In this document: piece after piece, positions 331 to 17,479 of the stretch
How positions within the stretch are numbered: the stretch's first letter is position 1
Layout of the letters: the number at the start of each line of letters is the position of its first letter
From: Clostridia bacterium
GTDB lineage: Bacteria; Bacillota; Clostridia; Oscillospirales; CAG-272
DNA length: 64,000 bases
NCBI GenBank assembly: GCA_017631855.1
Contig: JAGBSP010000033.1
Coordinates: forward strand, 13,461 to 77,460
Direction: 5' to 3'
Notes under the pieces: generated by a model
Told to the model about the DNA's origin: nothing
Seen by the model: the letters and a program-made list of their open reading frames with translations, nothing else
The model's database searches: none
Position numbers and translations under genes: made by a program

Positions 331-368
331 AATACTGTCCTCCTTTTTACTTTGCTTTAGACCTGATT

Positions 369-794: not shown

Positions 795-797
795 CTA

Positions 798-1625: not shown

Positions 1626-1638
1626 CTGTTACACTTCC

Positions 1639-2523: not shown

Positions 2524-2549
2524 AATTCTCCCTCCTTAATGATTTTAAG

Positions 2550-3053
2550 TTATCTTCCGTACTTTTCAAATATTTTATCAGCTCGATCTCTCGTGAAAAG
2601 CCACTCTTCCGGGATTTTATCCGTCGTTCCATATGCCTGCGCGGTTGGACCCCACGTATGCTCCATATGCAAAACAGTATCACCGCAACCACCTCTTGCC
2701 TTTCGCAAGACTTCAGCTATTTCACTTGGAGTAGCCAAATACATCTTCGGCAGTTGCAAATCATTCACATTTTCAAACTGCACAAGACAAAATATGGTCT
2801 TTTTGTGGTGCTTGTTCAGCCATTCGTCAATCGCCTCGTGATAAGTACGTCCCTTCTTAAAGCTTTGGGTTAATCCCCAACCACCGTCTTTGCTACCTTT
2901 AACTGATATTTTGAGCATCTCATCCCCACGGCTTGCTATCAAATCATACTCGGGTTGATCTGCGCCATACTGCACAGAAACATCATATCCATATCGTGCA
3001 AATTGAGCTGCCGCCATTCCTTCGGCTGCAACACCTACATGCCAAGAATTCAT
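2550..3053 (-). CDS. hypothetical protein with PD-(D/E)xK nuclease-like core
   Basis: 167 aa. GVAAEGMAAAQFARYGYDVS ... EYDLIASRGDEMLKISVKGS fits the G-x-x-A-E ... D-(L/I)-I ... (K/Q)-(I/V)-x-V-K layout of small restriction-endonuclease-fold proteins. Confidence 0.6.
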   Translation of the reverse strand: MNSWHVGVAAEGMAAAQFARYGYDVSVQYGADQPEYDLIASRGDEMLKISVKGSKDGGWGLTQSFKKGRTYHEAIDEWLNKHHKKTIFCLVQFENVNDLQLPKMYLATPSEIAEVLRKARGGCGDTVLHMEHTWGPTAQAYGTTDKIPEEWLFTRDRADKIFEKYGR

Positions 3054-3066
3054 TATCGCACCTTCC

Positions 3067-3465
3067 TTATTTCACAATCTCATATTCCCAATCGATGATA
3101 CCGCCGAACTCCTTGACGTTGGTATATCCGAGCTTGACAAGCTCCTCGGCTGCAATTTTGCTTCTTCTACCGCTACGGCAATAAACAAGTATTAACTGAT
3201 TTTTGTCTGGGAGCTCCTTCTCGGCGCGTTCGGCAATTTCATATTCGGGGATCAGTATTGCGCTGGGGATATGCCCCTCATCGTATTCGGACTGCGTTCT
3301 CGCATCAATGATGATATATCCGCTCTCGCTATCCATCAACGCCTTCGCTTCCGCACCGCTGAACTGATCATAGGATGCAGAACCTCCATCCGAGCATCCA
3401 ACGCATCCCAACGGCAACGCGAGGGTGAGAAGCATGAGCAAAAATCGTTTATTTCTTTTCAACAT
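3067..3465 (-). CDS. rhodanese-like domain lipoprotein
   Basis: Lipobox signal LALPLGCVGC. Rhodanese signatures IIIDARTQSEYDEGHIPSAILIP and active-site loop VYCRSGRRS. Confidence 0.88.
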   Translation of the reverse strand: MLKRNKRFLLMLLTLALPLGCVGCSDGGSASYDQFSGAEAKALMDSESGYIIIDARTQSEYDEGHIPSAILIPEYEIAERAEKELPDKNQLILVYCRSGRRSKIAAEELVKLGYTNVKEFGGIIDWEYEIVK

Positions 3466-3826
3466 ATATCCTTATACCCTCCGAAGCAAACTCCGCAGTT
3501 CCTTCACCGTACTTGTCGATGTTCTTCTTGAATCGCTCATCGACAACGTACATCTTGCCAAGCCCTGCAAGGATCTCATCAGTACAGGTGTAGTAGTTGG
3601 CGGTGATATGTGCCTGAAGCTCGGCTACAAGTGCCTGTGCTTCGGTAGAATCGGCACTCGCACCGCTCGCCTTGCACGCGGCAAACTCAGCAAAGATCGC
3701 CATCAAGCCGTCATTTGCCTCTGCCCACTTCTCTTTTGTATAGTTATTTGTCTTCTGCTCGTGTTCGCGATAAGCATCGGTGTTGCCCCAACGAGAGCGA
3801 GCTTCTGTTTTATAATCGTTATTCAT
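3449..3826 (-). CDS. TipAS antibiotic-recognition domain protein (stand-alone, no MerR HTH)
   Basis: 125 aa. RWGNTDAYREHEQKTNNYTKEKWAE ... ELQAHITANYYTCTDEILAGLGKMYVVDERFKKNID is typical of TipAS/Mta C-terminal domains. Overlaps the rhodanese ORF by 17 nt. Confidence 0.8.
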   Translation of the reverse strand: MNNDYKTEARSRWGNTDAYREHEQKTNNYTKEKWAEANDGLMAIFAEFAACKASGASADSTEAQALVAELQAHITANYYTCTDEILAGLGKMYVVDERFKKNIDKYGEGTAEFASEGIRIYVEKK

Positions 3827-3854
3827 TCTTTACCTTCTCAAAAAGCATTTTATT

Positions 3855-5384
3855 TTAGATATTGTTCTGTTCTCCCATAAACTTAATTGACATTAATTTC
3901 TCGTACAATTCTGGATTGTTTATGACAATAATTTTCAGCTCATTAACAGCTCTAGTAAGTATTTGATATAGCATTCCTTTTAGACTGTAATAATTCTTTC
4001 TTGCTACCAATCTATTATTGTCTGCATATCTAAAATTAGAGTCCATTGCAAAAACAACCCTATCAAATTCTTGGCCTATTACACCATGTGCTTTTTGTTC
4101 ACAAAGACATGATAGTGAGTCAACCGGTTCCGAAGAATACTGCGATGGTGTAAATGTTATAGCCTTCCACTCACCTGAACAATCCAGATAGTTCAGATAA
4201 TCTTGAGCATCGCTAACATTACTAAAATACTCTATCGTTATACCTTCATAATCCATATTATCTTTACTACTGCCAAATTCCATCATATTGTGAATAAAAG
4301 AAGCCAACTTTTTATTGGTTCTAATCTTAGTAGTTAATTTGCGTATTTTTGATGTGTTTTGAGGATAAAGTGCCATTAAGTACTCATGGATATCTTTTTT
4401 CTCATTATCCTTAAAATATTGTTTAGTATCATATGAAAATATTGTGGCAATTTTTTGATCGTACATATATTGAACAAAAGAATCCAGCTGATGCTTTCGA
4501 ATGCGATGAGCTTCATCCACCACAATCAAATCAGGTTTTTTTATTACAGGATTAAGGTCTTTGGCCTCGAGCACACTTACACATTTAATCTTCCACCTAT
4601 AATTCTTGTTTAACTCCCATTGTCCTTCATTTAATGTAGCGCAATGCAACACCAACACGGATTTTTTGCACTCTTGATACGTTTTCGCAATGTCATATGT
4701 AAGCAATGTCTTGCCGGTACCTGCATCGGCAGATATACAAAAAAACAAATACTCACCGTTATCTATCGAGGTCAATATCTCCTTCTTTTTCTTTGCTTGA
4801 TCTGGCGTTAGGAAATACTCACCGGACATAAAACGGTCCACCTTGTTAAAAGGAGAAACGAGATAGTTTGAAGGTTTGAAAAGCTTGTCTGGATCTAACT
4901 CAAAATCCACATTTTGATTAGCTAGCGCATCAACTAAATGTTGAGGTTCAACATTCTCAACACAATTATTTTCAGCATCATAACAATAAAACCCATCGTC
5001 CTCAATATACGTATATATTTTTAAAGGCTTTTCCAGAAATTTTAGATAATAATGCTGTTTATGCATTTGAGTAATGATGGTTTCAATTTTGCTTTCTTCA
5101 GGCAGCTTGCCTTTTAGCTCAATATTCACAATATAGTCTGTTCCGAATCGAAGCAAATCAAACTCGTTGGCTATTTGAGGTATTGAAAATCCGACATAGT
5201 ATCCATCAAGAATTCGAAATGGAGCCGGCATATCCGCAGACAACAACTCGCACAGTTTCCTCAAAGACACAACTTCATTCTTTTTCAAAAGCAACTTTGA
5301 TTTGTCTATCTTTATTTTCCCTTCATAATGCGCTGCATGAGTTTGACAAACAGAAGGTAAATACTGCGGTTTCATATGCCTCAC
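3855..5384 (-). CDS. NERD/PD-(D/E)xK-like N-domain fused to SF1 (DUF2075/UvrD-C-like) P-loop helicase-like ATPase
   Basis: N-terminal FDLLRFGTDYIVNIELKG gives a D...E-x-K core. Walker A is CISADAGTGKTLL and Walker B is LIVVDEAHRI. The SF1 C-terminal signatures are HGVIGQEFDRVVF and LYQILTRAVNEL. The track start at 5384 is GTG. ATG at 5375 behind GGGGTGAGG is an alternative start. Confidence 0.85.
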   Translation of the reverse strand: MRHMKPQYLPSVCQTHAAHYEGKIKIDKSKLLLKKNEVVSLRKLCELLSADMPAPFRILDGYYVGFSIPQIANEFDLLRFGTDYIVNIELKGKLPEESKIETIITQMHKQHYYLKFLEKPLKIYTYIEDDGFYCYDAENNCVENVEPQHLVDALANQNVDFELDPDKLFKPSNYLVSPFNKVDRFMSGEYFLTPDQAKKKKEILTSIDNGEYLFFCISADAGTGKTLLTYDIAKTYQECKKSVLVLHCATLNEGQWELNKNYRWKIKCVSVLEAKDLNPVIKKPDLIVVDEAHRIRKHQLDSFVQYMYDQKIATIFSYDTKQYFKDNEKKDIHEYLMALYPQNTSKIRKLTTKIRTNKKLASFIHNMMEFGSSKDNMDYEGITIEYFSNVSDAQDYLNYLDCSGEWKAITFTPSQYSSEPVDSLSCLCEQKAHGVIGQEFDRVVFAMDSNFRYADNNRLVARKNYYSLKGMLYQILTRAVNELKIIVINNPELYEKLMSIKFMGEQNNI

Positions 5385-5401
5385 CCCATTTCATGATAAT
5401 T

Positions 5402-7207
5402 TTATTTCACCGCCTTGATATATTCCCTTAAATACTTGTATGGGAATGGGATAACCGTTAGTTGCCCATTCTTAACAAACGAAACGCTCATAAGTGGTAA
5501 CAATTGTTCAAAGAAGTCGGGAGCATCCTTATATTTGACAATTCGTCGAATATTGGTTGAATGACTAATGCTATTACGCATTCCCTCTCCTATCTCACCT
5601 ACAAAGTAGTATGTATCTCCCCCTTGTTCAAAACACTTGATGTCCAAACACGAAGTCAAGAGTTCATCTCGTTTGCTTCTACCACGTAGTTTATTGTTTC
5701 CTTCCAAAAGTTCTGCATCTATTGCAAAGAGTTCCGGTAGCGTTATCCAATCAGTTCCCTTTATAATATTGATTTTACCGTCGGAATTTTTCAAAATACC
5801 TTGAACATCTTCAGATTTTGCCTTAGCATTCTCAAAAATCTCCACACACTCATGGTACTGATCCATATTGAAAAAGTCCAACTTGGATTCTGTAAAAGTA
5901 AAGCTACCATCGGACTTGATATTCATAAAGAAATACCTATTTACGCCATTATCGCACTTTGTGCATCCAAAGCAAAAATCCTCTTGATAGCCAAGTGCAT
6001 TCCAATCGAACAATGTTATTTGACCACTTAAAATATCTTTTTTGATAAGTAGTTCATGAACGATTGTAGAGATTGCAAACTCGCACTTTCCGGAAAAATC
6101 TTCAAATGTTATATGCTGAACAGCCGCATCTTCATGCTTCTCTTTATAGGGATCTTCTATATCCTCATAGTATGCTGCATTGTGAATAACACATATATTC
6201 AAAGATCCTTTGGAAACGCGCTTTCCAACTGTGGCTTTTACGCCATATTTTTCAAGAAGCTTTTCTGCTACATCACGACAAAATCTATCCGAATATTCGT
6301 CACCTATCTGATCAACTATTTTAATATTTTGTGCCGAAAGCATCTCTTGGATTGCTTTCAAATTTTCTTTTTGAGCTCTCCTCGAATAATCAAGTGCGGT
6401 ATATTCTTTAATTGTGTCAAATTCAATTGATGCAAGTCCTGCGAATTCCATATTAAAGTTTGACACAACGGATGCAAGCATACCTACTTTGCTTTTACGA
6501 TATTTTCTTATGTCCTGAAGATCAACAAACGGAATATCTGTTTTCTTACCATCAAGCTGACGCATGATAAAGGCAGGCTCATCATCTTCTTTCAGCTTTC
6601 TTCTTAGTGTACTCTTTCGAGAAAATACATACTTGGGATACTCCTCGAATTTTCTGGCACCAAACGTTATTTTCTTTCTGAGCAGCTCAGATGTGAAGGT
6701 ATGCATAGACATACAAAGCTTCATGTCTTGAGTAATACGCAACTCTAAACACGGAACTTGCCAAATGATATTTTTCTCCGATTTTTTATCATGTCGCAAC
6801 CATTCGTTATGGAAACAATAAAAGTGTCCGGTAAGATTGTTGCATTTCAAAAACTCGGATTTTGGGCTGCTCATGCTATTCAACAAAAGCTGAAGGACTT
6901 CACTTTCTTTGAGCAACGATGCGTCCTCTTTTGAGAACGTAATTTTTTCTCCTTCCTCGTGTGAATCAAAGGTTCGCTTCAATGCATCAAAATTACCATC
7001 ATTACGATTCATTAAAACAAGAAAAGTTCTTCCTCTTTCAAACAGAACTGCGCGAACTGAATCGTTCAAGAATGGTGCATCAATTATATATGCTCCATTT
7101 TTGAAATATTTATCGTCAGTTTTTACACGAAATACATCATACTTTTCGTTGAAAGCCGATATGTCTACCTTAAAAATAACTTGATTCGTTCTAATCGGCG
7201 AATTCAT
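5402..7207 (-). CDS. hypothetical protein (601 aa), no recognisable domain
   Basis: Long AT-rich ORF with ATG at 7205-7207 behind AGAGGTG. It overlaps the upstream helicase gene by 17 nt and sits 17 nt before the downstream ATPase gene. The only notable motif is a CFGCTKC cysteine cluster. Confidence 0.8.
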   Translation of the reverse strand: MNSPIRTNQVIFKVDISAFNEKYDVFRVKTDDKYFKNGAYIIDAPFLNDSVRAVLFERGRTFLVLMNRNDGNFDALKRTFDSHEEGEKITFSKEDASLLKESEVLQLLLNSMSSPKSEFLKCNNLTGHFYCFHNEWLRHDKKSEKNIIWQVPCLELRITQDMKLCMSMHTFTSELLRKKITFGARKFEEYPKYVFSRKSTLRRKLKEDDEPAFIMRQLDGKKTDIPFVDLQDIRKYRKSKVGMLASVVSNFNMEFAGLASIEFDTIKEYTALDYSRRAQKENLKAIQEMLSAQNIKIVDQIGDEYSDRFCRDVAEKLLEKYGVKATVGKRVSKGSLNICVIHNAAYYEDIEDPYKEKHEDAAVQHITFEDFSGKCEFAISTIVHELLIKKDILSGQITLFDWNALGYQEDFCFGCTKCDNGVNRYFFMNIKSDGSFTFTESKLDFFNMDQYHECVEIFENAKAKSEDVQGILKNSDGKINIIKGTDWITLPELFAIDAELLEGNNKLRGRSKRDELLTSCLDIKCFEQGGDTYYFVGEIGEGMRNSISHSTNIRRIVKYKDAPDFFEQLLPLMSVSFVKNGQLTVIPFPYKYLREYIKAVK

Positions 7208-10200
7208 TTATACACCTCTTTATCATATCAAATGCTTTATGGATGGGTTGGTTAGGATTGTTCGAATCGATCAACGAAGGAATTTGCACAACGGTTATAT
7301 CTCCATAACTCGTCCTAATCGGCTCGGCAAATTGCTCAGACACTACGTTAATTACGATGATACATTTTGCATTACAAGTATCTGCTTTCGACTTGATTTT
7401 CTTGAGCATTTCCTCAGTACCAAATCGCGTTCTCTCGTGCCAATTCTTAAAGTCAATGAAAATATCAGTGTTTTCAATCTTATAATCGAACATCTCAAAC
7501 ACTTCGGAATCTTCGATTTCTGTCAATTTCAGTCTTAAATAGCTCCAAAGCAAAAATCTTCCGGCCATCTCTCCCAACGCACCCTTGTAAATGTTGTTAA
7601 ACAGCGGTGGAGAAAGAATAAAATCATTATAATCGAATGTAGTTGCCCATCCCTTACATTCAAAGAAGTTTCGGAGACTTTGATTTTTCATCAAAAGATC
7701 CAGCTTGGCTGTAGACGATGAAACTTCGTACGGGTACTCTTTTGTTTTTCCGAAACTAACAAGAACTTTATTGTAATCCGACTCCTGATTATAATAAATT
7801 GTGTTCATTGGTTTCGGTAATTTTACATACGTATTATGTGCCATAAAGCTACAGCTTTCTTCCAACGATGACAGTGTTGGATGCTGCAACGTGTACTCTC
7901 TAAGCATCTTCCACTGCGCCATACGAGACTCCGTCCAATCTTCTCGCAAAACGTTATTGATCATCTTGTTTACGCGAACAGACAATAACGATGCCTCATC
8001 AGCAAAATCTCCACCAGCATAAGCTTTTCTATGTTTTTCAATATGAGCAAGCAAAGCCCTAAACTCGGGATTCAAAAGTCTGTTTCCGTCATCGATGTCA
8101 AAATCAATGCTTTCGGAAATACGATAGTCCGCAAAAACATAAACTGTTTTTCTCTTTTGATTTGTTCTACAAATACGACCAATTGCCTGAATTATAGTAC
8201 GAGTAGACATTAAAACCACACTTTTAGTATCGTAAACCGATTTTGAGTCATCCCAATAAGGATGTCCCGTCAAAAATGTCTTAAATGCCTTTTTGACATG
8301 TTTTTTTGTTTCTTGTGGTGAAAGTTCAGCCCACTCTTGCAAAAATTCTACATAATAAAGATACTTTACGAAGTCCTCATCTGAAAGATTTTCACTTAAA
8401 TTCACAAAGATATTCGTAGGCTTGTCCAGATAGATCGCGTCAAAATCTTTTTCCCCTCTCGATTCTCGATCATTGCTACTTACCAATTGACCAATTAAAT
8501 TTTGAGGAATGCCATATTGCAAGTTTTGTCCTGCACCTATTGTTTGATATACAGAAATAACAAACAACTTTTCACCATGCTGCAACCTATCAATGATTAG
8601 CTCTTTGTTAATGTCAAATTCTTCGCCATCTAACAAGCAGACAGTATTTTTGTCAAATTTCTGACCTCTTTCTTTATGGATAAACTTGAATATTTCATAT
8701 AGCATATCCATATCAAGATACATATCGCCCGGACGAGGATGTTTGGTTAACACACACAGAAAAGACTGAATGTCGTCATGGCGCACAAATTGCTTATATG
8801 CCATAGCAATTCTAAAATATCTCTCTTTATTGTAATTATTCTTTTCTTGGCTCAGTGCCCTCTCTACTTTATCAAAAATATGTTGTGCAAGCTCAGTGTC
8901 GTTGAAAACGCCTTCCCATATTTTTTCGTGATAGACTTCTCCCAAAAGTTGAACATCAATCTCAACATCCTTATATCCGGAAATCGATCTTTCAAATTCA
9001 GTTCTGAGTCTACTCCTATCGGATTCTCTCACAACATTATATTTTGTCTGCATCTTTGCTCGCAGATACTTATAATCGAAGTTTCCAACAACAGTAGGAA
9101 CAGATGCTGTGGCAGATATTCCTATTACCTTAGCTTTTTCGCAAAATCTCAAAAGGATTTTTTCAGGTGTCACCTGAAAAGAATACATCATGATTTTTGA
9201 TTGCATATCATGCGCGTAATCATCTTCAAATGCATAATAACGGAATCCGTTTTCATAAAATGACAAATCAAAGTCCGCATTCTCTATATCGCCCTTCGGC
9301 TTGTGCGAAGAAATAAGAATTTGTGAAGTTATGTAGTCAATATGCTTGTCACTTAAACGGAATTCAGCCAAAATCGAACGGATTGCTGATTCCAACGAAA
9401 ACTCATCTTCTCCCGGTTTTCTTCGTTCTTCTCTGCACTGCATATAGTTATATGCAAGCATATTTATGCCGCCCGAAAAATATTTTATAAAACCTCTTAG
9501 TTTACCAAGCATCACTTGGATATTCCCATCCTCACTACTCGGCTTCTCGGAAGAAAACTGTATAGCATTTATTCTCTCAGTCGAGTCGCTGACAGTTGTG
9601 ATATAGGACTTATTTCCGTCCAAAATTGCATGGAACTGATGGTCTTGGAACAAAAAATTCCGTGATTCAGCATCTTCGTTGCTTACCGTCTTATGACTGA
9701 ATTGCAACGAATACTGACTATGAATAGCATCAGCCTTTTCTCGTATGTTGTCAACGATAAACTGAAGGTTTGAGTGTTTATAATTGTTTGCAGCCTGACG
9801 CTCTGTCCATTTTTTAGACGGTGCGGTCATTGCTTTCGGAAACTCGATAGTATGCAAGACGGAATAGATATCGTTAAACAGTTCTATATAATCGATTTTT
9901 TCTCTAAGTCCGTTGGAAATAATATTTCTCAGTATAGTTTCCTTGGTGGCATCAAACTCATCAATAAAAATGATCGCATTGTCGATTATTTTTGAGTTAT
10001 AAAACATATACGACGGTTCTACAATTGTAGCATTTCTCGCAAGGAATTTATCCATACTCATAAATATGATTTGCTTATCACTCGTAAATACAGCCGGATA
10101 CAACTCACCCAGCCACTGCCACTTTTCATCTGTCTTTATCGCATAAATTCGGTCTTTTACAGTTTTAAATTCGCGCGCCAAAATCGCCTGCACATATCGC

Positions 10201-10667
10201 CTAAATGCAGGTTCAGATCTTCCCATCAAATTTTCTTTGATGCTCGCAGCATAAGGTCTCAAGCTTTTTCCACCCGCGTTCTTTTGAGATTCTCTTAGGA
10301 AGCGAACATCGTTTCTCATTGCTTTGAATTCATCCGTTTTTCGAATTTCAACGGGAATTCTTTTTTCAAGTTCTTCTGTCAGATATTGAATTACACAATC
10401 GGCGTTTGAATCTATGAAAAGAAACTTTTCCTTAAACTCAGCTAAATGGCCGCCTTCTCTAAAGTGCTTCTCTAAATCTTCTTTAGGAAGATTCTTTTTC
10501 AAGGTGGTTACAAAGAAGAATTTGCGCTCAGCATTGGCTTCTTCCATAGATGCCTCGTATATGTATTTCAATACATTATAGGTTTTGCCAAAACCCGTAG
10601 GCATATCAAGCAACAAAAGCCCATTTTCAATTCCGTTAGAACAATAGTCCTTTATAGCTGTGTACAT
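7191..10667 (-). CDS. SF2 (DEAD/DEAH, type III restriction Res-like) helicase with C-terminal PD-(D/E)xK nuclease-like domain
   Basis: Helicase motifs: I DMPTGFGKTYN, II IFIDEFDATKE, III GISATAS, V-like YQTIGAGQNLQ, VI QAIGRICRTNQ. The C-terminus, GALGEMAG ... FEMFDYKIEN ... IFIDFKNW, looks like a D...D-x-K nuclease core. AGGAG precedes the ATG at 10665-10667. Confidence 0.88.
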   Translation of the reverse strand: MYTAIKDYCSNGIENGLLLLDMPTGFGKTYNVLKYIYEASMEEANAERKFFFVTTLKKNLPKEDLEKHFREGGHLAEFKEKFLFIDSNADCVIQYLTEELEKRIPVEIRKTDEFKAMRNDVRFLRESQKNAGGKSLRPYAASIKENLMGRSEPAFRRYVQAILAREFKTVKDRIYAIKTDEKWQWLGELYPAVFTSDKQIIFMSMDKFLARNATIVEPSYMFYNSKIIDNAIIFIDEFDATKETILRNIISNGLREKIDYIELFNDIYSVLHTIEFPKAMTAPSKKWTERQAANNYKHSNLQFIVDNIREKADAIHSQYSLQFSHKTVSNEDAESRNFLFQDHQFHAILDGNKSYITTVSDSTERINAIQFSSEKPSSEDGNIQVMLGKLRGFIKYFSGGINMLAYNYMQCREERRKPGEDEFSLESAIRSILAEFRLSDKHIDYITSQILISSHKPKGDIENADFDLSFYENGFRYYAFEDDYAHDMQSKIMMYSFQVTPEKILLRFCEKAKVIGISATASVPTVVGNFDYKYLRAKMQTKYNVVRESDRSRLRTEFERSISGYKDVEIDVQLLGEVYHEKIWEGVFNDTELAQHIFDKVERALSQEKNNYNKERYFRIAMAYKQFVRHDDIQSFLCVLTKHPRPGDMYLDMDMLYEIFKFIHKERGQKFDKNTVCLLDGEEFDINKELIIDRLQHGEKLFVISVYQTIGAGQNLQYGIPQNLIGQLVSSNDRESRGEKDFDAIYLDKPTNIFVNLSENLSDEDFVKYLYYVEFLQEWAELSPQETKKHVKKAFKTFLTGHPYWDDSKSVYDTKSVVLMSTRTIIQAIGRICRTNQKRKTVYVFADYRISESIDFDIDDGNRLLNPEFRALLAHIEKHRKAYAGGDFADEASLLSVRVNKMINNVLREDWTESRMAQWKMLREYTLQHPTLSSLEESCSFMAHNTYVKLPKPMNTIYYNQESDYNKVLVSFGKTKEYPYEVSSSTAKLDLLMKNQSLRNFFECKGWATTFDYNDFILSPPLFNNIYKGALGEMAGRFLLWSYLRLKLTEIEDSEVFEMFDYKIENTDIFIDFKNWHERTRFGTEEMLKKIKSKADTCNAKCIIVINVVSEQFAEPIRTSYGDITVVQIPSLIDSNNPNQPIHKAFDMIKRCINEFAD

Positions 10668-10685
10668 AAATTCTCCTTTTTCGTT

Positions 10686-11075
10686 TTAGAATCGTCTTGT
10701 GATTTCCTTTAATATTTCTTCGTCTGCTGGGCAGAACTCGTAGTTCGATATCTCGCTCGGCGTAATCCATTTGATATCGTTATGCTCCAACTTCTGTGGC
10801 TCGCCCTCGGTAATGGTCGCGGTAAAGAGCGTCAGATGCACCATCAAGTCGGGATATTCGTGGATAACATCCATAAACTCATCACCGACAGAAAGAAGAA
10901 CATTTAATTCTTCCTTGCACTCTCTAACGAGCGCCTGCTCTTTCGTCTCTCCCTGCTCAACCTTGCCGCCAACGAATTCCCATAGGAGTCCTCGCGCCTT
11001 GTGCGCCGGGCGCTGGCAGATCATAAATTTATCGCCCTGCCAAACGAGAGCAGCTACTACCTCAGTTATTTTCAT
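10686..11075 (-). CDS. Nudix hydrolase, MutT-like
   Basis: Nudix box GGKVEQGETKEQALVRECKEELNV. 129 aa. The start ATG overlaps the upstream stop (ATGA at 11072-11075). Confidence 0.9.
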   Translation of the reverse strand: MKITEVVAALVWQGDKFMICQRPAHKARGLLWEFVGGKVEQGETKEQALVRECKEELNVLLSVGDEFMDVIHEYPDLMVHLTLFTATITEGEPQKLEHNDIKWITPSEISNYEFCPADEEILKEITRRF

Positions 11076-13201
11076 ATTTCCTCAATCCCCAAACTCTTCA
11101 AGTACTGATATGTACCGTCATAAAATTCGGGCAAGCGGGTGCTATCTTCCCAAAATCCGCTAACTGTTTTATTCGGATTACCTTCAGGCACACAAATCAC
11201 CATTCCAGCTCTTGCGCGAGTAAGTAGAACACGATACGCATTCAGCATATATTTCATAAGCTCTTGTTTGCTTTCGGTGCTCCCTATTTGCTCAATCCAC
11301 TTGGTCTGTCCATTGAAACGATAGAAGCGCCACTTGCCGTCCTCATATCGCATATCGGCATCCCAAAGGAGACACGTATAGTCAAGTTCCAAGCCCTGAA
11401 CCTGAATTTCTGTAGCTGCATCCTCAAGATAATTTGACGATCTTACATCGGCTTTATCGTCAAGGAACCAGTGAACCGCATTTTCATCACCTGCTGGCAA
11501 TATATGTATGGCTAACGGCTTAAACCTCGCAGATTCTTTCGTTACCAAAACTCCGGTACGCTCAGTTCCTCTGACCTTATCGTGTAGCCATTTTCTCGCC
11601 TTTGCCATATCTCGAGTTAAAACAATCGGATACTTATCTTTGATTTCACTATACAGTGTCGATGCATTATCATCAAAAGACAAAAGCGAATGAACAAACG
11701 CCGAAAGTTTCTCTGCTCTGAACGAACGTAATGAAACACCCAAATGCAAGCTTTCAGCATAAGTTACATTGTGGTTATCTTTCAACAACTCATTAACTTT
11801 ACCCTCGGCATACTCTGCATCTGTCAATTTGGGAGAGATGTAAACGTTCCAATGTGGGAACTGTTCGTTTAGCGCCTTGATCCATTCGGATATTCCAGCC
11901 TCACCGGTGTTGATCTCCTGACCGCCGCCAACAAGGCAAACTATCGTTGCCCAGTCCTCGCGCTGATCAAGCGACCAAATCAAAAATGCCGCTTCTGATA
12001 ACGGGAAATTTGGAACTTTCAGTTTGTTACCATACGTTCCGCCTCGTTTCAAGTAATCAGCAAGTCTTTTGTGGGTCCAAGAGCGCTGTGCTTCATCAAA
12101 AATTGCTACGTGCTCAACCTCACCAAATCCGGCTTTTTCTAATTTTACAGCCTTTTCGGGATCGATTTCAAGAACGCCGTTCTCGACAGGGTTCTTTATT
12201 TTTGCCAACATGTTATCGCGATATCGGTGAATCATTTGAATTGACTTCGACACCTCACGACGAGAGTCGGTCATTTTCTTCTTTTCACCATTCGCTCTAC
12301 ACTTGCTGTAATTGTCCTGTGCAAGTGCTTCAGTCAATACCGCAACGAGAGGTCCATTACCCGATAGATAAACAGCACCCTCGTCCTTGACCGGCTCTTT
12401 ATTGCCCTGATATGTTTGCTTAATTGCAACATCAAGACCGACAAGCGTTTTGCCAGCTCCAGGAACACCGGTAACAAAACAAATGCTCTTTTTCTGATTT
12501 TGTTTGCTGTCTTTTATAACGTCTAAAATATAAGCGATGGTTCTATCTGTAGAAACCTTGTCCGCTTCATGTCGGGTAATGTTTTCAACAGAGTGATTTT
12601 CGTATAAGGTTTTAGCTGCCTCAATAATTGTCGGCGTTGGAGCGTATGGACTAATAATCCAGTTGTCATCGACAGGTGTTTCATTCGGAAACTCTTTGAG
12701 CACCTCAGCAATTAAATTCGCAACACCCGATTTTCCCGACATCAGCGGGTTAACCACTCTGTCATCATAAACAGACATTTGGATTTCAGTAGATACGTTA
12801 TGATAATTTGTTGCAATAAGGATCGGTACTATAAGATTATTCTGACTAAACTTATGAAAGTTTTTCAAGTCGAGCGCATAATCAAGTACCTGATCGACAT
12901 CTGCTTCTATTATTCTGGACTCTCCGACCTTAAACTCGAGGCAAAACACGATTCCCTTAAGAAGCAATACAACGTCAATTCGCTTACCAAGACGAGGAAT
13001 ATCGTATTCAAAGATGATTTTGCCGTCCTTGTTTGAAAACTCGGACAAAATCTCTTTCATAATCGAGATTTCCAATTTCCATGCCTCTCTTGTTGTAGTG
13101 AGAGCTTCCCCATGATATCTCTCGCACAAAGCACCAAATATTGAGTTTTCGCTTGTGGTAATAAATTCTGTAAAACTGCTATTATATAAACAACGGCTCA
13201 T
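11072..13201 (-). CDS. DUF2075-type protein: PD-(D/E)xK-like N-domain + SF1/Schlafen-group-3-like P-loop ATPase
   Basis: N-terminal IPRLGKRIDVVLLLKGIVFCLEFKVGE gives D...E-x-K. Walker A is FVTGVPGAGKTLVG and Walker B is VAIFDEAQRSW. The C-terminal LLTRARAGMVI matches the SF1 signature. AGGAG sits 8 nt before the ATG at 13201. Confidence 0.88.
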   Translation of the reverse strand: MSRCLYNSSFTEFITTSENSIFGALCERYHGEALTTTREAWKLEISIMKEILSEFSNKDGKIIFEYDIPRLGKRIDVVLLLKGIVFCLEFKVGESRIIEADVDQVLDYALDLKNFHKFSQNNLIVPILIATNYHNVSTEIQMSVYDDRVVNPLMSGKSGVANLIAEVLKEFPNETPVDDNWIISPYAPTPTIIEAAKTLYENHSVENITRHEADKVSTDRTIAYILDVIKDSKQNQKKSICFVTGVPGAGKTLVGLDVAIKQTYQGNKEPVKDEGAVYLSGNGPLVAVLTEALAQDNYSKCRANGEKKKMTDSRREVSKSIQMIHRYRDNMLAKIKNPVENGVLEIDPEKAVKLEKAGFGEVEHVAIFDEAQRSWTHKRLADYLKRGGTYGNKLKVPNFPLSEAAFLIWSLDQREDWATIVCLVGGGQEINTGEAGISEWIKALNEQFPHWNVYISPKLTDAEYAEGKVNELLKDNHNVTYAESLHLGVSLRSFRAEKLSAFVHSLLSFDDNASTLYSEIKDKYPIVLTRDMAKARKWLHDKVRGTERTGVLVTKESARFKPLAIHILPAGDENAVHWFLDDKADVRSSNYLEDAATEIQVQGLELDYTCLLWDADMRYEDGKWRFYRFNGQTKWIEQIGSTESKQELMKYMLNAYRVLLTRARAGMVICVPEGNPNKTVSGFWEDSTRLPEFYDGTYQYLKSLGIEEI

Positions 13202-13215
13202 AAGAGAAACTCCTA

Positions 13216-13428
13216 TTATTTATTATCAGGAACGATTTCCATGATCTCATCGACCGTACACTCAAGCGCTGTACAGATCTTAACCAACACATCGCTTGAA
13301 ACGGTCGCTCCGTCTTTTTTCATCTTCGCAAGTGTTGTGGGGCTAATCCCTGCCTGCGCAGCAAGGTCCTTACTTTTGATCTCGCGATCGATCATCAATT
13401 TGAATAGTTTCTTATAGCTTGCAGCCAT
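13216..13428 (-). CDS. XRE-family helix-turn-helix transcriptional regulator
   Basis: HTH segment LAAQAGISPTTLAKMKKDG. I take the start as the ATG at 13426-13428 (MAASYKKL) behind GAGGTG. The track start at 13440 lies upstream of that RBS. An extended -10 (TGGTATAAT) lies upstream on the minus strand. Confidence 0.85.
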   Translation of the reverse strand: MAASYKKLFKLMIDREIKSKDLAAQAGISPTTLAKMKKDGATVSSDVLVKICTALECTVDEIMEIVPDNK

Positions 13429-13660
13429 TTTACACCTCAAATAATTAAAGTATTATATATTTAATTATACCACTATTTTCACCACAAATCAACAATATTC
13501 TCAAATATTATTCGCGAAGTTGAAATTTATTTCATGTTTGCCAGCTGGCGTAAACATCGTTATGACCTTTTTTGCATGGTAGAGATCGTTTTACGTCAAT
13601 AATCTTTTCACATGATAAAATTTATTAAGCCTTCGGGCAATAAATTTTAAGGAGAAAAAC

Positions 13661-14836
13661 ATGGCAAACGTTATGCAAAAACCAAACGGAACCTATCTTG
13701 TGCGAATCTCTTGTGGAAGAGATATTATGACAGGTAAGCAAATTCTACGCGGACGCATCTTCAAACCGTCAAACCCCGATTTAAGTCAAGAAAGACTCCA
13801 GAAAGAGCTTAATGAATTTATCGAAGAGTTCACAGACGAACTACAATGCGAACGCAATAGAAAAAAGCCGGAGAACAAAACTGTTTCCGACTTTGCGAAG
13901 GAGTATCTTTCTATTCAAAAAACGTCCCTCTCGCCTGGCTCCTATAACTTTTATCAAAACATCATTGAAAAACATATTCTTCCTATGTTCGGGCGAATGC
14001 GCCTACGTGACATCAAAACCTATCACGTACAGGATTTTATTTTGCGCCTCAATTCTCTTTCCAGGAGCGACGGCAAACCCGGCCATATATCTCCATCTAC
14101 TGTCAAGCGCTATACAAGTGTTCTGCGCTCTATGCTAACAATGGCATATAAGTTATACTATATTGACGATGACATAGGCCTATCACGCCGTTTAACATTT
14201 CCTAAGGAGCGTTATCAAGAGGTTGACGTGTTCACCATAGAAGAAACAAAAGCAATCCTCACTGCCGCTAAAACAGAGCCAATTAATATACGCTTGCTGA
14301 TCGAACTTGCTCTTTTCACCGGCATGCGCCGTGGTGAGATCGTTGGACTTAAATGGTCTGATATCAATTTTGACAAGCAATGTCTGTCCATCAAGAGAAG
14401 CATTTATAAACCCAAAGGCGAGAAATCTATTGAGAAAGAACCGAAATCACATTCGAGCATTCGTACTATCGCTATTCCGAACTGTCTATGTGAAACACTC
14501 GCGGAGTACAAGGTCTGCCAAGAGCGGCATTCCCTGTCACTTGATACTTGGCAAAATCTCGATTACGTATTTACTGACGAGAACGGCAACGTAATGAATC
14601 CACAAACCCCCACAAAGCAATTCTCACATTTTCTTGCAAGACACAATATCCGACATCTGAAATTTCATTGTTTGAGACATACCTCTGCTACTCTTCTACT
14701 TTCCAACGGTTGCGACATCAAAACGGTTTCCGCGCGTCTCGGACATTCAAGCATAGATACTACAAATATCTACGTACACGTGCTTGAGAGTGTTGATAGA
14801 CAAGCTGCCACTACATTTGAAAATCTATGCAATTAA
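13661..14836 (+). CDS. int: tyrosine recombinase / phage-type integrase
   Basis: C-terminal catalytic region GMRRGEIVGLKW ... HCLRHTSATLLLSNGCDIKTVSARLGHSSIDTTNIYVHV supplies the R...H-x-x-R...H...Y residues. AAGGAG precedes the ATG at 13661. Confidence 0.95.
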   Translation: MANVMQKPNGTYLVRISCGRDIMTGKQILRGRIFKPSNPDLSQERLQKELNEFIEEFTDELQCERNRKKPENKTVSDFAKEYLSIQKTSLSPGSYNFYQNIIEKHILPMFGRMRLRDIKTYHVQDFILRLNSLSRSDGKPGHISPSTVKRYTSVLRSMLTMAYKLYYIDDDIGLSRRLTFPKERYQEVDVFTIEETKAILTAAKTEPINIRLLIELALFTGMRRGEIVGLKWSDINFDKQCLSIKRSIYKPKGEKSIEKEPKSHSSIRTIAIPNCLCETLAEYKVCQERHSLSLDTWQNLDYVFTDENGNVMNPQTPTKQFSHFLARHNIRHLKFHCLRHTSATLLLSNGCDIKTVSARLGHSSIDTTNIYVHVLESVDRQAATTFENLCN

Positions 14837-14840
14837 AACC

Positions 14841-14881
14841 GAAAAGCAATTTAACGACTAAAACTCGCTAAATTGCTTTTC
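14841..14881. terminator. bidirectional hairpin between convergent int and hipA-like genes
   Basis: 13-bp perfect stem GAAAAGCAATTTA (14841-14853) / TAAATTGCTTTTC (14869-14881), followed by TTTGTTTC. Confidence 0.7.
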
Positions 14882-14899
14882 TTTGTTTCTGTATGCGCC

Positions 14900-15952
14900 T
14901 TATTTGACTATTTGATTATATCTTCCCATAACCAAATCAATAATAACCTGTGATTTCACTTTCATATTCAGTTTTGCAATCACATCTCGTACCATCTCTT
15001 CGGTAACTTCGGGAATATATGACTTGTAATTCGGATACTCTTCCATAAGCGCATTAAACAATGAAATCAACATATCTTTGGCATCCGGCTTTGATGGATA
15101 TCCACGAGAAATCAATGCCATATTATTGTCAAAATTAGGAGCCAATCCTAATAGTTCACCGGTTTTAACATCACGCAATAATCCAAAATTATTTGTATGT
15201 CTGTCAGGGTTAGCACAGATTGTATCCAAAAAAATCATTCTAACATAATCTGGTATAGCTCGAGGACAAAGATTATTAAGTGCCTTTATTACATCAGAAT
15301 ATTCTTCATTGTCTCCCATAAAAGACGAAGCAGGCTCAAAATTCACAGAAGCTGCATTGGTAAAATCCAATGACATAATAAAATCAAAGCCTTGTTTATA
15401 TATAGCCATGTTAAAACCAAATTTTTTTCCCAATTCATATACAAACAATTCAGAAAACATTTCATCATTTGTTGCTCTTTTGTACATCCACCATTGGCCT
15501 TCTTTGAGTCGCCAACATTTTTCAAAACTTCCCAAATTAGTCAACTCAGGAGTGATAATTTTTTCGGATAAATTACGTTGAGCTGCTTCATTAAAACTGT
15601 TATAGCTTCCTTTTAATGCAAGCCATGAAAAATAGTTCTCATCAAATTTCACATCCGAATATGACAATTGTGATCCAATTGGACGAACCCAATAATTATC
15701 GGTTATTGTGGCTCCATTAACATGAATTACAGTTGAAACATCATCACGTTCTACCAATCGCAATGCTTTTTTTAACAATCTTGAATTAGAACGATGACTA
15801 TCTATAGCACGCGTTTCGAGCCAAAGATCCGCATTCTGAATTTTTTTCAAATACATAGGCAGCAAAGAATCATTAACGACAGTCAGCTTATTATCATTCC
15901 ATATAGCAACAAGCGTATCTCCACTGAATATCTCGTAATTTCTATCAGCCAT
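14900..15952 (-). CDS. hipA: HipA-like serine/threonine kinase toxin (HipA_C-type)
   Basis: C-terminal kinase core ICANPDRHTNNFGLLRD ... LGLAPNFDNNMAL matches D-R-H-x-x-N and the following aP-x-(Y/F)-D of HipA_C. Its start overlaps the XRE stop (TAATG). Confidence 0.8.
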   Translation of the reverse strand: MADRNYEIFSGDTLVAIWNDNKLTVVNDSLLPMYLKKIQNADLWLETRAIDSHRSNSRLLKKALRLVERDDVSTVIHVNGATITDNYWVRPIGSQLSYSDVKFDENYFSWLALKGSYNSFNEAAQRNLSEKIITPELTNLGSFEKCWRLKEGQWWMYKRATNDEMFSELFVYELGKKFGFNMAIYKQGFDFIMSLDFTNAASVNFEPASSFMGDNEEYSDVIKALNNLCPRAIPDYVRMIFLDTICANPDRHTNNFGLLRDVKTGELLGLAPNFDNNMALISRGYPSKPDAKDMLISLFNALMEEYPNYKSYIPEVTEEMVRDVIAKLNMKVKSQVIIDLVMGRYNQIVK

Positions 15953-16179
15953 TATTCGCTCCTCCCCTTCTCATCATCTTCAGGAATAAACTCCATTATA
16001 TCATCTAGTGTACAATTTAGAGCCTTGCAAATCTTGCCAAGCACTTCAACCGTTACGTTGTTACCCGAACTCATCTTGCTGATCGTAAAATTACTGATAC
16101 CGGCAAGTTGCGCGAGCTCCTTCTTTTTCATGTCTCTATCGATTAGTAATTTCCAAAGTTTCTTATAGCTAACAGCCAT
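15952..16179 (-). CDS. XRE-family HTH regulator (HipB-like antitoxin candidate)
   Basis: Paralogue of 13216-13428 (MAVSYKKLWKLLIDRDMKKKELAQLAGISNFTISKM). It has the same GAGGTG-N4-ATG leader and the same extended -10 TGGTATAAT upstream. The ATG at 16177-16179 is preferred over the track start at 16191. Confidence 0.85.
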   Translation of the reverse strand: MAVSYKKLWKLLIDRDMKKKELAQLAGISNFTISKMSSGNNVTVEVLGKICKALNCTLDDIMEFIPEDDEKGRSE

Positions 16180-16307
16180 TTTGCACCTCAAAATAGTATT
16201 ATCATTTTATGAGTCAATTATACCATAAAATTCTGCTGATGTCAACAATTTATTTTAGCGATTGCAAAATTATTTGTCCGTTTAATTCACAAAAATAGAT
16301 ATTTTAC

Positions 16308-16336
16308 TTGACAAATTGCTAAAACAGTGGTATAAT
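16308..16336 (+). promoter_or_regulatory. consensus sigma-70/SigA-type promoter with no downstream ORF
   Basis: TTGACA (16308-16313), a 17-nt spacer, then TATAAT (16331-16336). Confidence 0.6.
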
Positions 16337-16444
16337 ATAATCAGACCAAAGTCCTACAAAAACGTGAAGTACATAGTTTTTTGGTGCATACTTTTAGTGC
16401 ATACCCCTTAAAACTATGAACCAAATGTACATTTTCGAGGCACG

Positions 16445-16525
16445 ACGATATCACTCAAAAAGACCAAAATAACGTAAAATAGCCGACGATAACGTGAAAT
16501 AATCCACGATAATGACTAAAAACCC
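16445..16525 (+). repeat. four tandem degenerate ~20-nt direct repeats (ACGATAAyG..AAA.A..CC)
   Basis: The units are ACGATATCACTCAAAAAGACC, AAAATAACGTAAAATAGCCG, ACGATAACGTGAAATAATCC and ACGATAATGACTAAAAACCC. Units 2/3 and 3/4 each match at 14 of 20 positions by hand alignment. Confidence 0.5.
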
Positions 16526-16630
16526 CGGTTCATAGGGCAGTTGGGGTATTAGAGACCATAAGTTCAAGTTTTGTCACGCGTTGGGGGGAGATCTCGCAAG
16601 TTCAAATCTTGCCATTCTGACTATGCAAGA

Positions 16631-16664
16631 AAGCCTTGAAAGCATAAGTTTTCAAGGCTTTTTT
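16631..16664 (+). terminator. intrinsic terminator
   Basis: Stem AAGCCTTGAAA (16631-16641) / TTTCAAGGCTT (16650-16660) followed by a T-run. Confidence 0.75.
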
Positions 16665-16675
16665 ACGTATCGTTA

Positions 16676-17479
16676 TTATTTTTTCATATCTTTTTTATAC
16701 TGGGACGGGGTTTTACCAAAGTGCTTTTTGAAGCAGTGACAAAAGGTATTCAGTGAATTGTATCCTGCCTCATAGGCAATTTCGGTTAAGGTTTTGTCGC
16801 TGTTTTTTATTCTCGTTGCAACATACTCGCTTCTTACCGCGCCGAGATAAGTTCTGAAAGGTACCTTCAACTTATCACAAAAGAAATGAGCAATATAGGA
16901 CGGATGATAGCCGAATTCCTTTGCCAAATATGAAATGGTAAGGGGTTTCTCGAAATTATCGTGTATGTACGCGATCATTCGAGGTGCAAGATTCAATTCT
17001 TGCACTTCCTTCAACGGTTTTAGTTCAAGCACCGCTTGGATTCCCGCGATTGCAACGTATGCCCATCCGACCGATTCAAACTCGTTTTTGGCATCAACCA
17101 TTCCGCGAAACGCCAGAGCGGCGCTCTCGGGGATTCTCTCGGCCTTGATCAACGGGCATTCGGGCTGCATCGTTATAATTTGCGGCATATATTTTGTAAT
17201 TAAATCGGTGTTGCACATCACCGAAATACATTCAGTTTCCTCGTTCCCAGACGAATCGCCCAAAAGATACTCGTGAATCGTATTTGGAAAAATAACGATC
17301 GTATCTCCTGCCTTTAAGATATAGACCGTTTGATCGACCTTAATCTCTTGTATACCGGAAAAGCAATGTGCAATCTCAAGCTTATTATGAAAATGCGAAT
17401 CAAAGGAATGCGCACTTTTGTGATAATCAAAATAAATTTCCTTTTTACTGTTCTCGTAATATGGGTACATCTTTCTCAC
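16676..17479 (-). CDS. AraC-family transcriptional regulator (cupin N-domain + HTH_AraC)
   Basis: The C-terminal TLTEIAYEAGYNSLNTFCHCFKKHFGKTPSQY is a canonical AraC HTH. The N-terminal region is cupin-like. Divergent from the GH3 gene. Confidence 0.9.
   Translation of the reverse strand: MRKMYPYYENSKKEIYFDYHKSAHSFDSHFHNKLEIAHCFSGIQEIKVDQTVYILKAGDTIVIFPNTIHEYLLGDSSGNEETECISVMCNTDLITKYMPQIITMQPECPLIKAERIPESAALAFRGMVDAKNEFESVGWAYVAIAGIQAVLELKPLKEVQELNLAPRMIAYIHDNFEKPLTISYLAKEFGYHPSYIAHFFCDKLKVPFRTYLGAVRSEYVATRIKNSDKTLTEIAYEAGYNSLNTFCHCFKKHFGKTPSQYKKDMKK

What the first reader, a model, noticed from the sequence alone, without database searches (positions are those of the whole stretch)
16300..16670. 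Orphan transcription unit: consensus promoter, structured region, four ~20-nt tandem repeats, tRNA-like T-arm and terminator, with no ORF
Seen in the sequence:
- A perfect TTGACA-17-TATAAT promoter (16308-16336) points into 320 nt that contain no ORF of 60 aa or more.
- A 9-bp hairpin (16372-16380 / 16410-16418) encloses a GTGCATAC direct repeat.
- Four tandem ~20-nt repeats lie at 16445-16525, and adjacent units match at 14 of 20 positions.
- GCAAG-TTCAAAT-CTTGC (16596-16612) is a textbook T-stem/T-loop.
- The predicted 5' end TCAGA can pair with TCTGA at 16616-16620, like an acceptor stem.
- An 11-bp terminator with a T-run ends the unit at 16631-16664.

Inference, two non-exclusive readings:
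(a) An island-encoded structured RNA with a tRNA-like module and a repeat array. The array could be a protein sponge, or a TA/defence guide-like or antitoxin-like RNA, given the adjacent HipA-like kinase.
(b) The attachment site of the integrase. The repeats would be arm-type Int-binding sites at two-helical-turn spacing, and the T-arm would be the leftover 3' end of a tRNA target.
Basis: partly seen in the sequence, partly recalled or inferred. Interest (0 to 1): 0.6.

Follow-up and report, generated by a model that had tools for sequence, protein, structure and literature searches.

The report
Island end in a tRNA-Pro gene
This "orphan RNA gene" is the right-hand attachment end of a mobile defence island inserted in a proline tRNA gene: leftover tRNA pieces, the tRNA's own terminator, probable recombinase-binding repeats and a conserved outward promoter whose role is unknown.

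Summary
Nearly all the sequence features exist, but they are not one RNA gene. The T-arm (16596-16612), the "acceptor" TCTGA and the terminator (16631-16664) are the decayed 3' half of tRNA-Pro(GGG) plus that tRNA's native terminator. A second, more decayed 3' half lies just upstream (16541-16577).

The intact tRNA-Pro(GGG) is on contig C40 of the same genome, followed by a related integrase. A perfect 49-bp repeat of its 3' half lies 21.5 kb upstream of the finding. A related genome joins the C40 and C37 flanks with only about 4.4 kb between them.

So 16300-16577 is the inner arm (P-arm, attR side) of an island carried by a tRNA-Pro(GGG)-specific tyrosine integrase family. I found 13 homologous arms.
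- Four GTRCATA boxes recur in these arms and also in the opposite (P') arms.
- Four ACGATAA-type boxes about 20.5 bp apart occur only in this arm, a lambda-like layout.
- The promoter is conserved in all 13 arms, so a transcript of about 290-320 nt across the att site is likely.

Evidence for a structured functional RNA is weak: no Rfam, tRNA or tmRNA hit and one wobble-preserving helix. Reading (b) is essentially right. Reading (a) is mostly wrong.

The parts
13661..14836 (+). Tyrosine integrase IntB. It is 58% identical to IntC, which sits next to the intact tRNA-Pro(GGG) on contig C40.
   Evidence: Pfam Phage_integrase and Phage_int_SAM_3. BLASTP against IntC. Homologues of 60-80% identity lie about 270-720 nt downstream of tRNA-Pro(GGG).
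14900..16191 (-). Cargo: a HipA-like kinase (14900-15952) and an XRE repressor (15952-16191). Their own perfect promoter is at 16245-16217.
   Evidence: Pfam. Promoter scan. This cargo is absent between the integrase and the arm in L087 and L108.
16308..16336 (+). Outward-facing sigma-70 consensus promoter inside the island arm.
   Evidence: 12/12 match. CTTGAC is invariant. The -10 is TATAAT in 10 of 13 arms and a one-off variant in 3 of 13. Spacing is 17 in the five arms counted, despite a divergent spacer.
16369..16432 (.). Four GTRCAT(A) boxes at 16369, 16384, 16397 and 16427. These are candidate arm-type integrase sites. The 9-bp inverted repeat 16372-16380 / 16410-16418 belongs to an inverted copy of the first box.
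   Evidence: Positions are conserved in the six arms scanned. The same motif occurs in tandem and inverted in the P' arms of C40 and L008 and of L105/L106. Pair counts.
16445..16512 (.). Four ACG(A/T)WA boxes at 16445, 16472, 16486 and 16506, about two helical turns apart. These are candidate sites for an accessory protein (excisionase or DNA-bending type).
   Evidence: Boxes and spacing are conserved in all homologues. They are absent from the P' arms. Lag-20 autocorrelation is 0.54. TRF result.
16522..16547 (+). ACCCC (16522-16526) is complementary to GGGGT (16543-16547) of the anticodon-loop core. This is a possible RNA helix.
   Evidence: 92% of cells pair. Nearly all changes are C-to-T or A-to-G and keep a wobble pair.
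16541..16577 (+). Decayed copy of the tRNA-Pro(GGG) 3' half, from the anticodon loop to the T-arm. It is the right-hand repeat of the island (attR core).
   Evidence: 32/45 match to the tRNA 3' half. It aligns with the perfect repeat at the end of copy 2.
16581..16621 (+). Older chromosomal remnant of a tRNA-Pro 3' half.
   Evidence: 31/45 match. The block from T-arm 1 through remnant 2 is shared with G034, which has a different insert, and with G025.
16631..16664 (+). Native intrinsic terminator of the tRNA-Pro(GGG) gene. It probably also serves the convergent AraC gene at 16676-17479(-).
   Evidence: 17-bp hairpin plus a T-run. It is 79% identical to the sequence after the intact tRNA-Pro in G005 and G037.

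Best explanation
Window 16300-16670 is a composite formed by site-specific integration, not a dedicated RNA gene.

Layout, left to right:
- 16300-16540 is the inner arm (P-arm) of the attachment site of a genomic island. The island is carried by a tyrosine integrase family that targets the tRNA-Pro(GGG) gene.
- 16541-16577 is the island-side copy of the tRNA 3' half, the att repeat, now decayed.
- 16581-16621 is an older chromosomal tRNA-Pro 3' remnant from an earlier integration.
- 16631-16664 is the terminator that originally ended the tRNA gene.

Inferred by analogy with lambda-type attP sites:
- The four GTRCATA boxes, present on both arms of the site, bind the integrase's arm-binding domain.
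- The four phased ACGATAA-type boxes, present on this arm only, bind an accessory directionality or bending protein.
- Together they would build the recombination complex.

The arm also carries a conserved consensus promoter that fires outward across these sites and the core. The transcript should end at the tRNA terminator, giving about 290-320 nt. I take this transcript to be real. It most likely acts in cis on the recombination site, by promoter/arm-site interference or weak read-through toward the integrase after circularisation. I do not think it is a trans-acting tRNA-like RNA.
For: Shown:
- Neither ARAGORN nor Rfam finds an RNA gene here.
- The intact tRNA-Pro(GGG) is at C40:4798-4873.
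- Its 3' half recurs perfectly at C37:8530 (45/45 in the scan; 49 bp at 100% by BLAST). It recurs in decayed form at window 16541 and at about 16581.
- G005 and G037 have an intact tRNA-Pro whose 3' end and terminator match 16595-16664.
- G034 carries the C40 left flank, tRNA-Pro, a 4.4-kb insert and the window's remnants, AraC and GH3 on one contig.
- IntB is 58% identical to IntC, which sits beside the tRNA.
- Homologues of 60-80% identity lie just downstream of tRNA-Pro(GGG) in unrelated contigs.
- There are 13 homologous arms. They end at the tRNA half and have varied cargo upstream.
- GTRCATA boxes occur on both arms. ACGATAA boxes occur on one arm only, with conserved spacing.
- The promoter hexamers are conserved in 13/13 arms while the spacer and leader diverge.

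Inferred:
- Protein binding to the boxes.
- The role of the promoter.
Against: - No excisionase gene was identified.
- The N-terminal 70 residues of the integrases match no Pfam arm-binding domain.
- No conserved left-hand core site is visible next to TTGGGGT, so the exact crossover point is unknown.
- The window's island has its integrase 1.5 kb inside the right end, not next to the tRNA.
- Two inverted repeats keep complementarity across homologues: 91.6% of cells pair, against 34-52% for slid controls. This could mean selection on an RNA fold.
Confidence: 0.8

Rival explanations
1. The island encodes a genuine structured small RNA. It would run from the conserved promoter through the arm and the tRNA-Pro 3' half to the terminator. 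It would act in trans or as a regulator of recombination, for example through a helix that sequesters the anticodon-loop core sequence.
For: - The promoter is conserved in 13/13 arms.
- A terminator follows the core in the four arms where the downstream sequence was read (window, copy 2 and L062) and after the tRNA on C40.
- Helix ACCCC/GGGGT pairs in 92% of cells, and almost all changes keep a wobble pair.
- Helix 1 has 4 pairs with changes on both sides.
- The MFE z-score is -2.85 for the full unit.
Against: - The z-score falls to -1.9 (window) and -1.0 (copy 2) without the terminator and tRNA part, and the two predicted folds differ.
- The RNAalifold consensus is weak: -10.7 kcal/mol with a covariation term of -0.6.
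- Helix 1 consists of two inverted copies of the GTRCATAG box, which is also found inverted in the untranscribed P' arm. Its covariation can therefore be DNA-level.
- The central 100 nt show phased boxes and no structure.
- The T-arm decays freely in G025, G036 and L087.
- The leader is not conserved.
Confidence: 0.2
2. The promoter is Pcirc-like. It faces outward when the island is integrated. After excision and circularisation it would sit upstream of the co-oriented integrase gene and raise its expression to favour re-integration, as in ICEclc.
For: - An outward promoter sits at the island end.
- In C40, L105 and L106 the order is tRNA half, P' arm, then integrase on the same strand. A circle would therefore place the promoter upstream of int.
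- The ICEclc precedent is described in PMC5812530.
Against: - Two intrinsic terminator-like hairpins lie between the tRNA half and intC. One or two lie in the P' arm of L008.
- The integrases have their own conserved extended -10 element (CATGATAMAAT) about 45 nt before the RBS.
- In the window's island, and in L087 and L108, the integrase lies upstream of the promoter, not downstream across the junction.
Confidence: 0.25
3. The phased ACGATAA boxes are iterons of a replication origin for the excised element, activated by transcription from the adjacent promoter.
For: - Direct repeats lie about 20.5 bp apart in an A-rich stretch next to a strong promoter.
- The element that ends at copy 2 carries an AAA_25/RepA-like gene and a relaxase.
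Against: - The same arm occurs in islands without any replication gene nearby: the window, L087, L108 and L100.
- The arm always abuts the att core.
- No Rep gene co-varies with it.
Confidence: 0.05

Closest known systems
Lambda-type attP/attR architecture of tyrosine integrases that target tRNA genes (identity block from the anticodon loop to the tRNA 3' end; from my own knowledge of Williams 2002-type site classes)
   Same: - A tyrosine integrase is present.
- The direct repeat equals the tRNA 3' half, with the intact tRNA at the far end.
- Repeated boxes sit on both arms, and a second box type sits on one arm only.
- Tandem accretion of islands and decayed remnants occurs at the same tRNA.
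   Different: - The arm sites and the accessory protein are unverified, and no excisionase was found.
- A conserved consensus promoter lies inside the arm and points at the core.
- In many members the integrase lies directly upstream of this arm.
Pcirc of ICEclc (PMC5812530)
   Same: A strong outward-facing promoter sits at the end of a tRNA-integrated element. In some members it would face the integrase gene after circularisation.
   Different: Terminators lie between the core and the integrase. The integrase has its own promoter. In the window's island the geometry does not place int downstream of the promoter.
tRNA, tmRNA and tRNA-like RNA genes
   Same: It contains a true T-stem/T-loop and a 3' acceptor strand.
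   Different: There is no 5' half, D-arm or anticodon stem. ARAGORN and Rfam are negative. The piece is a decaying fragment of tRNA-Pro(GGG).
ToxI-type repeat-array antitoxin RNAs (type III TA)
   Same: Short tandem repeats lie downstream of a promoter and next to a toxin-like gene.
   Different: The repeats are short boxes, not processed units. The toxin gene is on the other strand and has its own XRE partner. The neighbouring cargo varies or is absent in homologues.

Membership tests
att site (attR) of a tRNA-integrated genomic island | A tyrosine integrase is encoded in the element. | tested here: met
   Pfam Phage_integrase and SAM_3 at 13661-14836. PDB relatives are tyrosine recombinases.
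att site (attR) of a tRNA-integrated genomic island | A direct repeat equal to the tRNA 3' part bounds the element, with an intact tRNA at one end. | tested here: met
   tRNA-Pro(GGG) is at C40:4798-4873. A perfect repeat lies at C37:8530 (45/45 in the scan; 49 bp by BLAST). Decayed copies lie at window 16541 and 16581.
att site (attR) of a tRNA-integrated genomic island | The same chromosomal flanks are closer together, or differently occupied, in relatives. | tested here: met
   G034 has the C40 left flank, the tRNA, a 4.4-kb insert and the window's remnants, AraC and GH3. No fully empty site was found.
att site (attR) of a tRNA-integrated genomic island | The integrase family is consistently associated with the same tRNA. 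| tested here: met
   Homologues of 60-80% identity lie about 270-720 nt downstream of tRNA-Pro(GGG) in L091-L096 and L105, and of a tRNA-Pro 3' half in L106.
att site (attR) of a tRNA-integrated genomic island | Integrase and accessory proteins bind the arm repeats, and the element excises. | not testable with these tools
   Only motif distribution is available. EMSA or footprinting and junction PCR are needed.
tRNA / tmRNA gene | A complete cloverleaf (or tmRNA tRNA-like domain plus tag ORF) is detectable. | tested here: not met
   ARAGORN finds nothing in the window or in L008. Only the 3' half is present.
Any Rfam family | A covariance-model hit at or above the gathering score. | tested here: not met
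   There is no hit in 16150-16750. The best score is 18.7 bits against a cut-off of 40.
Type III TA antitoxin RNA | A repeat array lies immediately upstream of its toxin gene, on the same strand, and is conserved with it. | tested here: not met
   The HipA-like gene is divergent and paired with XRE. Homologous arms follow Phd/ParE, Phd/PIN, NOV_C-like or the integrase itself.
Pcirc-like promoter | An outward promoter at the element end. | tested here: met
Pcirc-like promoter | After circularisation it reads without hindrance into a co-oriented integrase gene. | tested here: inconclusive
   The geometry fits in C40, L105 and L106 only. One or two terminator-like hairpins lie between. It does not fit the window's island.

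The most novel reading that the evidence does not exclude
A family of tRNA-Pro(GGG)-specific integrative elements keeps a consensus promoter inside its attP arm. The promoter would make an att-spanning RNA of about 300 nt: arm sequence fused to a tRNA-Pro 3' half. A conserved C-rich tract would pair with the anticodon-loop core sequence. This RNA, or the act of transcribing it, would control integration, excision or integrase expression. That would be an RNA or transcription layer on tyrosine-integrase recombination that has not been described for such elements.
Probability: 0.2. Interest if true: 0.55.

Novelty: new member of a known kind. Interest (0 to 1): 0.25.

Why it matters
- It resolves an apparent orphan RNA gene into an ordinary integration scar. 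This prevents a false "tRNA-like ncRNA" annotation.
- It fixes the right boundary of the island that carries the DdmDE/Nhi, Schlafen-type helicase/Nudix and HipA-like modules.
- It shows that tRNA-Pro(GGG) is an accretion hotspot in this Clostridia lineage. One integrase family there carries very variable cargo: CBASS, Wadjet, GmrSD, Roc-COR and TA pairs.
- The conserved promoter inside the recombination arm is the only unusual element. It gives a simple, testable question: does transcription across att sites tune island mobility?

Tried and rejected
- Rfam at gathering and permissive thresholds, and ARAGORN, gave nothing.
- A tmRNA-like reading was rejected: there is no conserved tag frame, no 5' acceptor partner and no ARAGORN hit.
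- Small-protein coding was rejected because of indels of 1 and 13 nt among homologues.
- Further homologues were searched for widely:
  - 72 genomes of the genus gave only G025 and G036.
  - 400 genomes of the order gave none.
  - Motif scans of genome and metagenome contigs gave mostly chance hits, plus L062 and L074.
  - Viral contigs, plasmids and phages gave none.
- Nine further arms among 24 loci came from contigs encoding integrase homologues. Seven of these are distinct and complete enough to join the 13-arm alignment.
- No Pfam arm-binding domain matched the integrase N-termini.
- No clear excisionase was found. The only hint is a weak HTH_17 match in L008:900-1412.
- An nhmmer match of the arm to the region upstream of tRNA-Pro in G005 was judged to be A-rich low-complexity sequence plus the tRNA half.
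- The exact crossover position could not be fixed.

Full report
**1. What is in the sequence**

The promoter at 16308-16336 is a 12/12 match to TTGACA-17-TATAAT with a TG extension. A second perfect promoter on the other strand (16245-16217) serves the XRE/HipA-like operon. No ORF of 60 aa or more lies in the unit.

The 9-bp inverted repeat, the GTGCATAC direct repeat, the T-stem/T-loop and the terminator hairpin are all present.

The "four 20-nt repeats" are only partly real. TRF reports 2.2 copies. Units 1 and 2 share 8 of 20 positions, against 13-14 for the later pairs. The lag-20 periodicity (0.54) does exceed the 99th percentile of shuffles (0.50).

ARAGORN finds no tRNA or tmRNA in the window. 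Rfam finds nothing in 16150-16750 even at E = 10.

**2. The T-arm, "acceptor" and terminator are tRNA-Pro(GGG) debris**

A search of relatives showed that window 16595-16664 matches the 3' end and terminator of an intact tRNA-Pro(GGG) in G005 and G037. The window's own genome has its intact tRNA-Pro(GGG) on another contig, C40:4798-4873.

Scanning with the tRNA's 45-nt 3' half gave three further copies:
- A perfect copy at C37:8530, which is 21.5 kb upstream of the finding and outside the window.
- A 32/45 copy at window 16541.
- A 31/45 copy starting near window 16581.

So 16541-16577 and 16581-16621 are two successive decayed 3' halves. Each begins at the anticodon loop (TTGGGG). The terminator is the one that originally ended the tRNA gene.

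It has no conserved complement there.

**3. The locus is an island-accretion site**

G034 carries all of the following on one contig:
- the left flank of C40 (ApbE region);
- an intact tRNA-Pro(GGG);
- a 4.4-kb insert with a Phd/ParE pair;
- the same double remnant, AraC and GH3 genes as the window.

C40 and C37 are therefore the two sides of one chromosomal site. In G000 that site holds at least 35 kb of inserted DNA.

On C40 the tRNA is followed by two terminators, a short arm with tandem AGTACATAG boxes, and integrase IntC. IntB (window 13661-14836) is 58% identical to IntC. It is 35% identical to a third integrase in the upstream mobilisable element.

Earlier notes of this scan place DdmDE, Nhi and an XRE/helicase/Nudix module in the same island. 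My Pfam run agrees for the helicase, Nudix, XRE and HipA-like genes.

**4. The 240 nt upstream of the tRNA half are a conserved island arm**

A second copy of the whole unit lies at C37:8297-8610. It covers the promoter through to the tRNA half and shares 66% BLAST identity (76% mean column identity in the pairwise alignment). It sits directly after a Phd/ParE pair and ends in the perfect 49-bp repeat plus a terminator.

Further copies came from:
- two genomes of the genus (G025, G036);
- two metagenome contigs (L062, L074);
- contigs that encode IntB homologues (L087, L088, L098, L100, L108, L109, L110).

This gave 13 distinct arms. All end at the tRNA half.

What lies upstream of the arm varies:
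- XRE/HipA-like, alone or with Roc-COR or GmrSD genes;
- Phd/ParE;
- Phd/PIN;
- a NOV_C-like protein;
- the integrase itself, 40-85 nt away (L087, L108).

This rules out a functional tie to the HipA-like kinase.

IntB-like proteins of 60-80% identity lie about 270-720 nt downstream of tRNA-Pro(GGG), or of its 3' half, in unrelated contigs. This fixes the target of the family.

**5. Anatomy of the arm**

*GTRCATA boxes.* Four GTRCAT(A) boxes (window 16369, 16384, 16397, 16427) keep their positions in the six arms scanned. The same motif stands in tandem, and in inverted pairs, in the opposite arm next to the tRNA. Examples are C40, L008 8672-8728 and L105/L106.

*ACGATAA-type boxes.* Four ACG(A/T)WA boxes (16445, 16472, 16486, 16506) keep a spacing of about 41 + 20 bp even in the copy that is 66% identical. 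They are absent from the opposite arms.

Boxes on both arms, plus a second set on one arm between them and the core, is the layout of lambda-type attP. There, integrase arm sites lie on P and P', and Xis sites lie on P only. That comparison rests on my own knowledge. Binding here is inferred, not shown.

Its right arm (16410-16421) is an inverted copy of the first box with its flank, with 11 of 12 positions the same. The compensatory changes seen in L100 can therefore reflect parallel change of two copies of one protein site. They need not reflect RNA pairing.

**6. Is there an RNA?**

*For a transcript.* The -35 (CTTGAC) is invariant. The -10 is TATAAT in 10 of 13 arms and a one-off variant in the other three. 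Meanwhile the spacer and the first 25 transcribed bases diverge. The promoter is therefore under selection and a transcript is likely. It would end at the tRNA terminator.

*Against a structured RNA.*
- The arm without its tRNA and terminator part folds no better than shuffles. The z-scores are -1.9 and -1.0, and the folds differ in the two copies.
- The RNAalifold consensus is weak: -10.7 kcal/mol with a covariation term of -0.6.
- The T-arm decays freely in several arms.

*For a structured RNA.*
- A C-rich tract (16522-16526) stays complementary to the GGGGT of the core.
- Nearly all its changes are C-to-T or A-to-G and keep a wobble pair.
- Overall 91.6% of cells pair, against 34-52% for slid controls.

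This is suggestive, not decisive.

**7. What the promoter might do**

The nearest precedent is Pcirc of ICEclc. That is an outward promoter which drives the integrase only after circularisation (PMC5812530). The geometry fits C40 and L105/L106, where the order is tRNA half, P' arm, integrase.

Three points count against it:
- One or two terminator-like hairpins lie in between.
- The integrases have their own conserved extended -10.
- In the window's island the integrase lies upstream of the promoter.

I therefore rank a cis effect first. This could be interference between transcription and the recombination complex, or low read-through. A trans-acting RNA comes second. An iteron or origin reading comes last.

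**8. Verdict**

Reading (a) is not, apart from the likely existence of a transcript. This is a new member of a well-known kind, a tRNA-gene att site. Its one uncommon feature is a conserved promoter inside the arm.

Noticed in passing
G000 contig C40:4750-6321 (L039) and C37:1-30100 (L008 plus window 1-16620): Tandem accretion at tRNA-Pro(GGG). The order is: intact tRNA, IntC, a contig break, a mobilisable element (integrase, relaxase, NikA-like, AAA_25, DUF6076, Phd/ParE), a perfect 49-bp repeat, a 21.5-kb defence island with IntB, and two decayed repeats.
   Followed up: partly
L008 8785-8811; window 13570-13578; L105 about 410-440: The P' arm holds a hairpin, CCTCTACC-loop-GGTAGAGG, that mimics the tRNA-Pro anticodon stem. 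A lone TGGTAGAG box recurs about 90 nt upstream of intB, intC and their homologues. In G000 the 18 kb of defence cargo lies between the complete hairpin and the lone box. This may mark a secondary insertion point or an integrase operator.
   Followed up: partly
L087-L110 (contigs with IntB homologues): Cargo around one integrase family (80-91% identical) is highly variable. It includes CBASS (SMODS/SAVED), Wadjet JetABCD, GmrSD, Roc-COR/LRR, SIR2, MspI-type and type I restriction-modification, and Schlafen-type helicases. An XRE gene is almost always divergent from the integrase, and XRE/HipA-like genes often sit next to the arm.
   Followed up: no
window 16217-16245 (-): A second perfect TTGACA-17-TATAAT promoter with a TG extension lies back-to-back with the arm promoter. 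It drives the XRE/HipA-like operon. The two -35 hexamers are 62 bp apart.
   Followed up: no
L038 (G025 contig) 735-1003 and 11608-11675; L087 7258-7523 and 7777-7844: In these genomes the arm and the double tRNA remnant are separated by 10.6 kb (G025) or about 250 nt (L087). This shows further insertions or deletions at the junction.
   Followed up: no
L008 6185-7543 and L074 1242-2579: A DUF6076 protein of about 450 aa is conserved just upstream of an interchangeable TA pair (Phd/ParE or Phd/PIN) at the island end. Its function is unknown.
   Followed up: no
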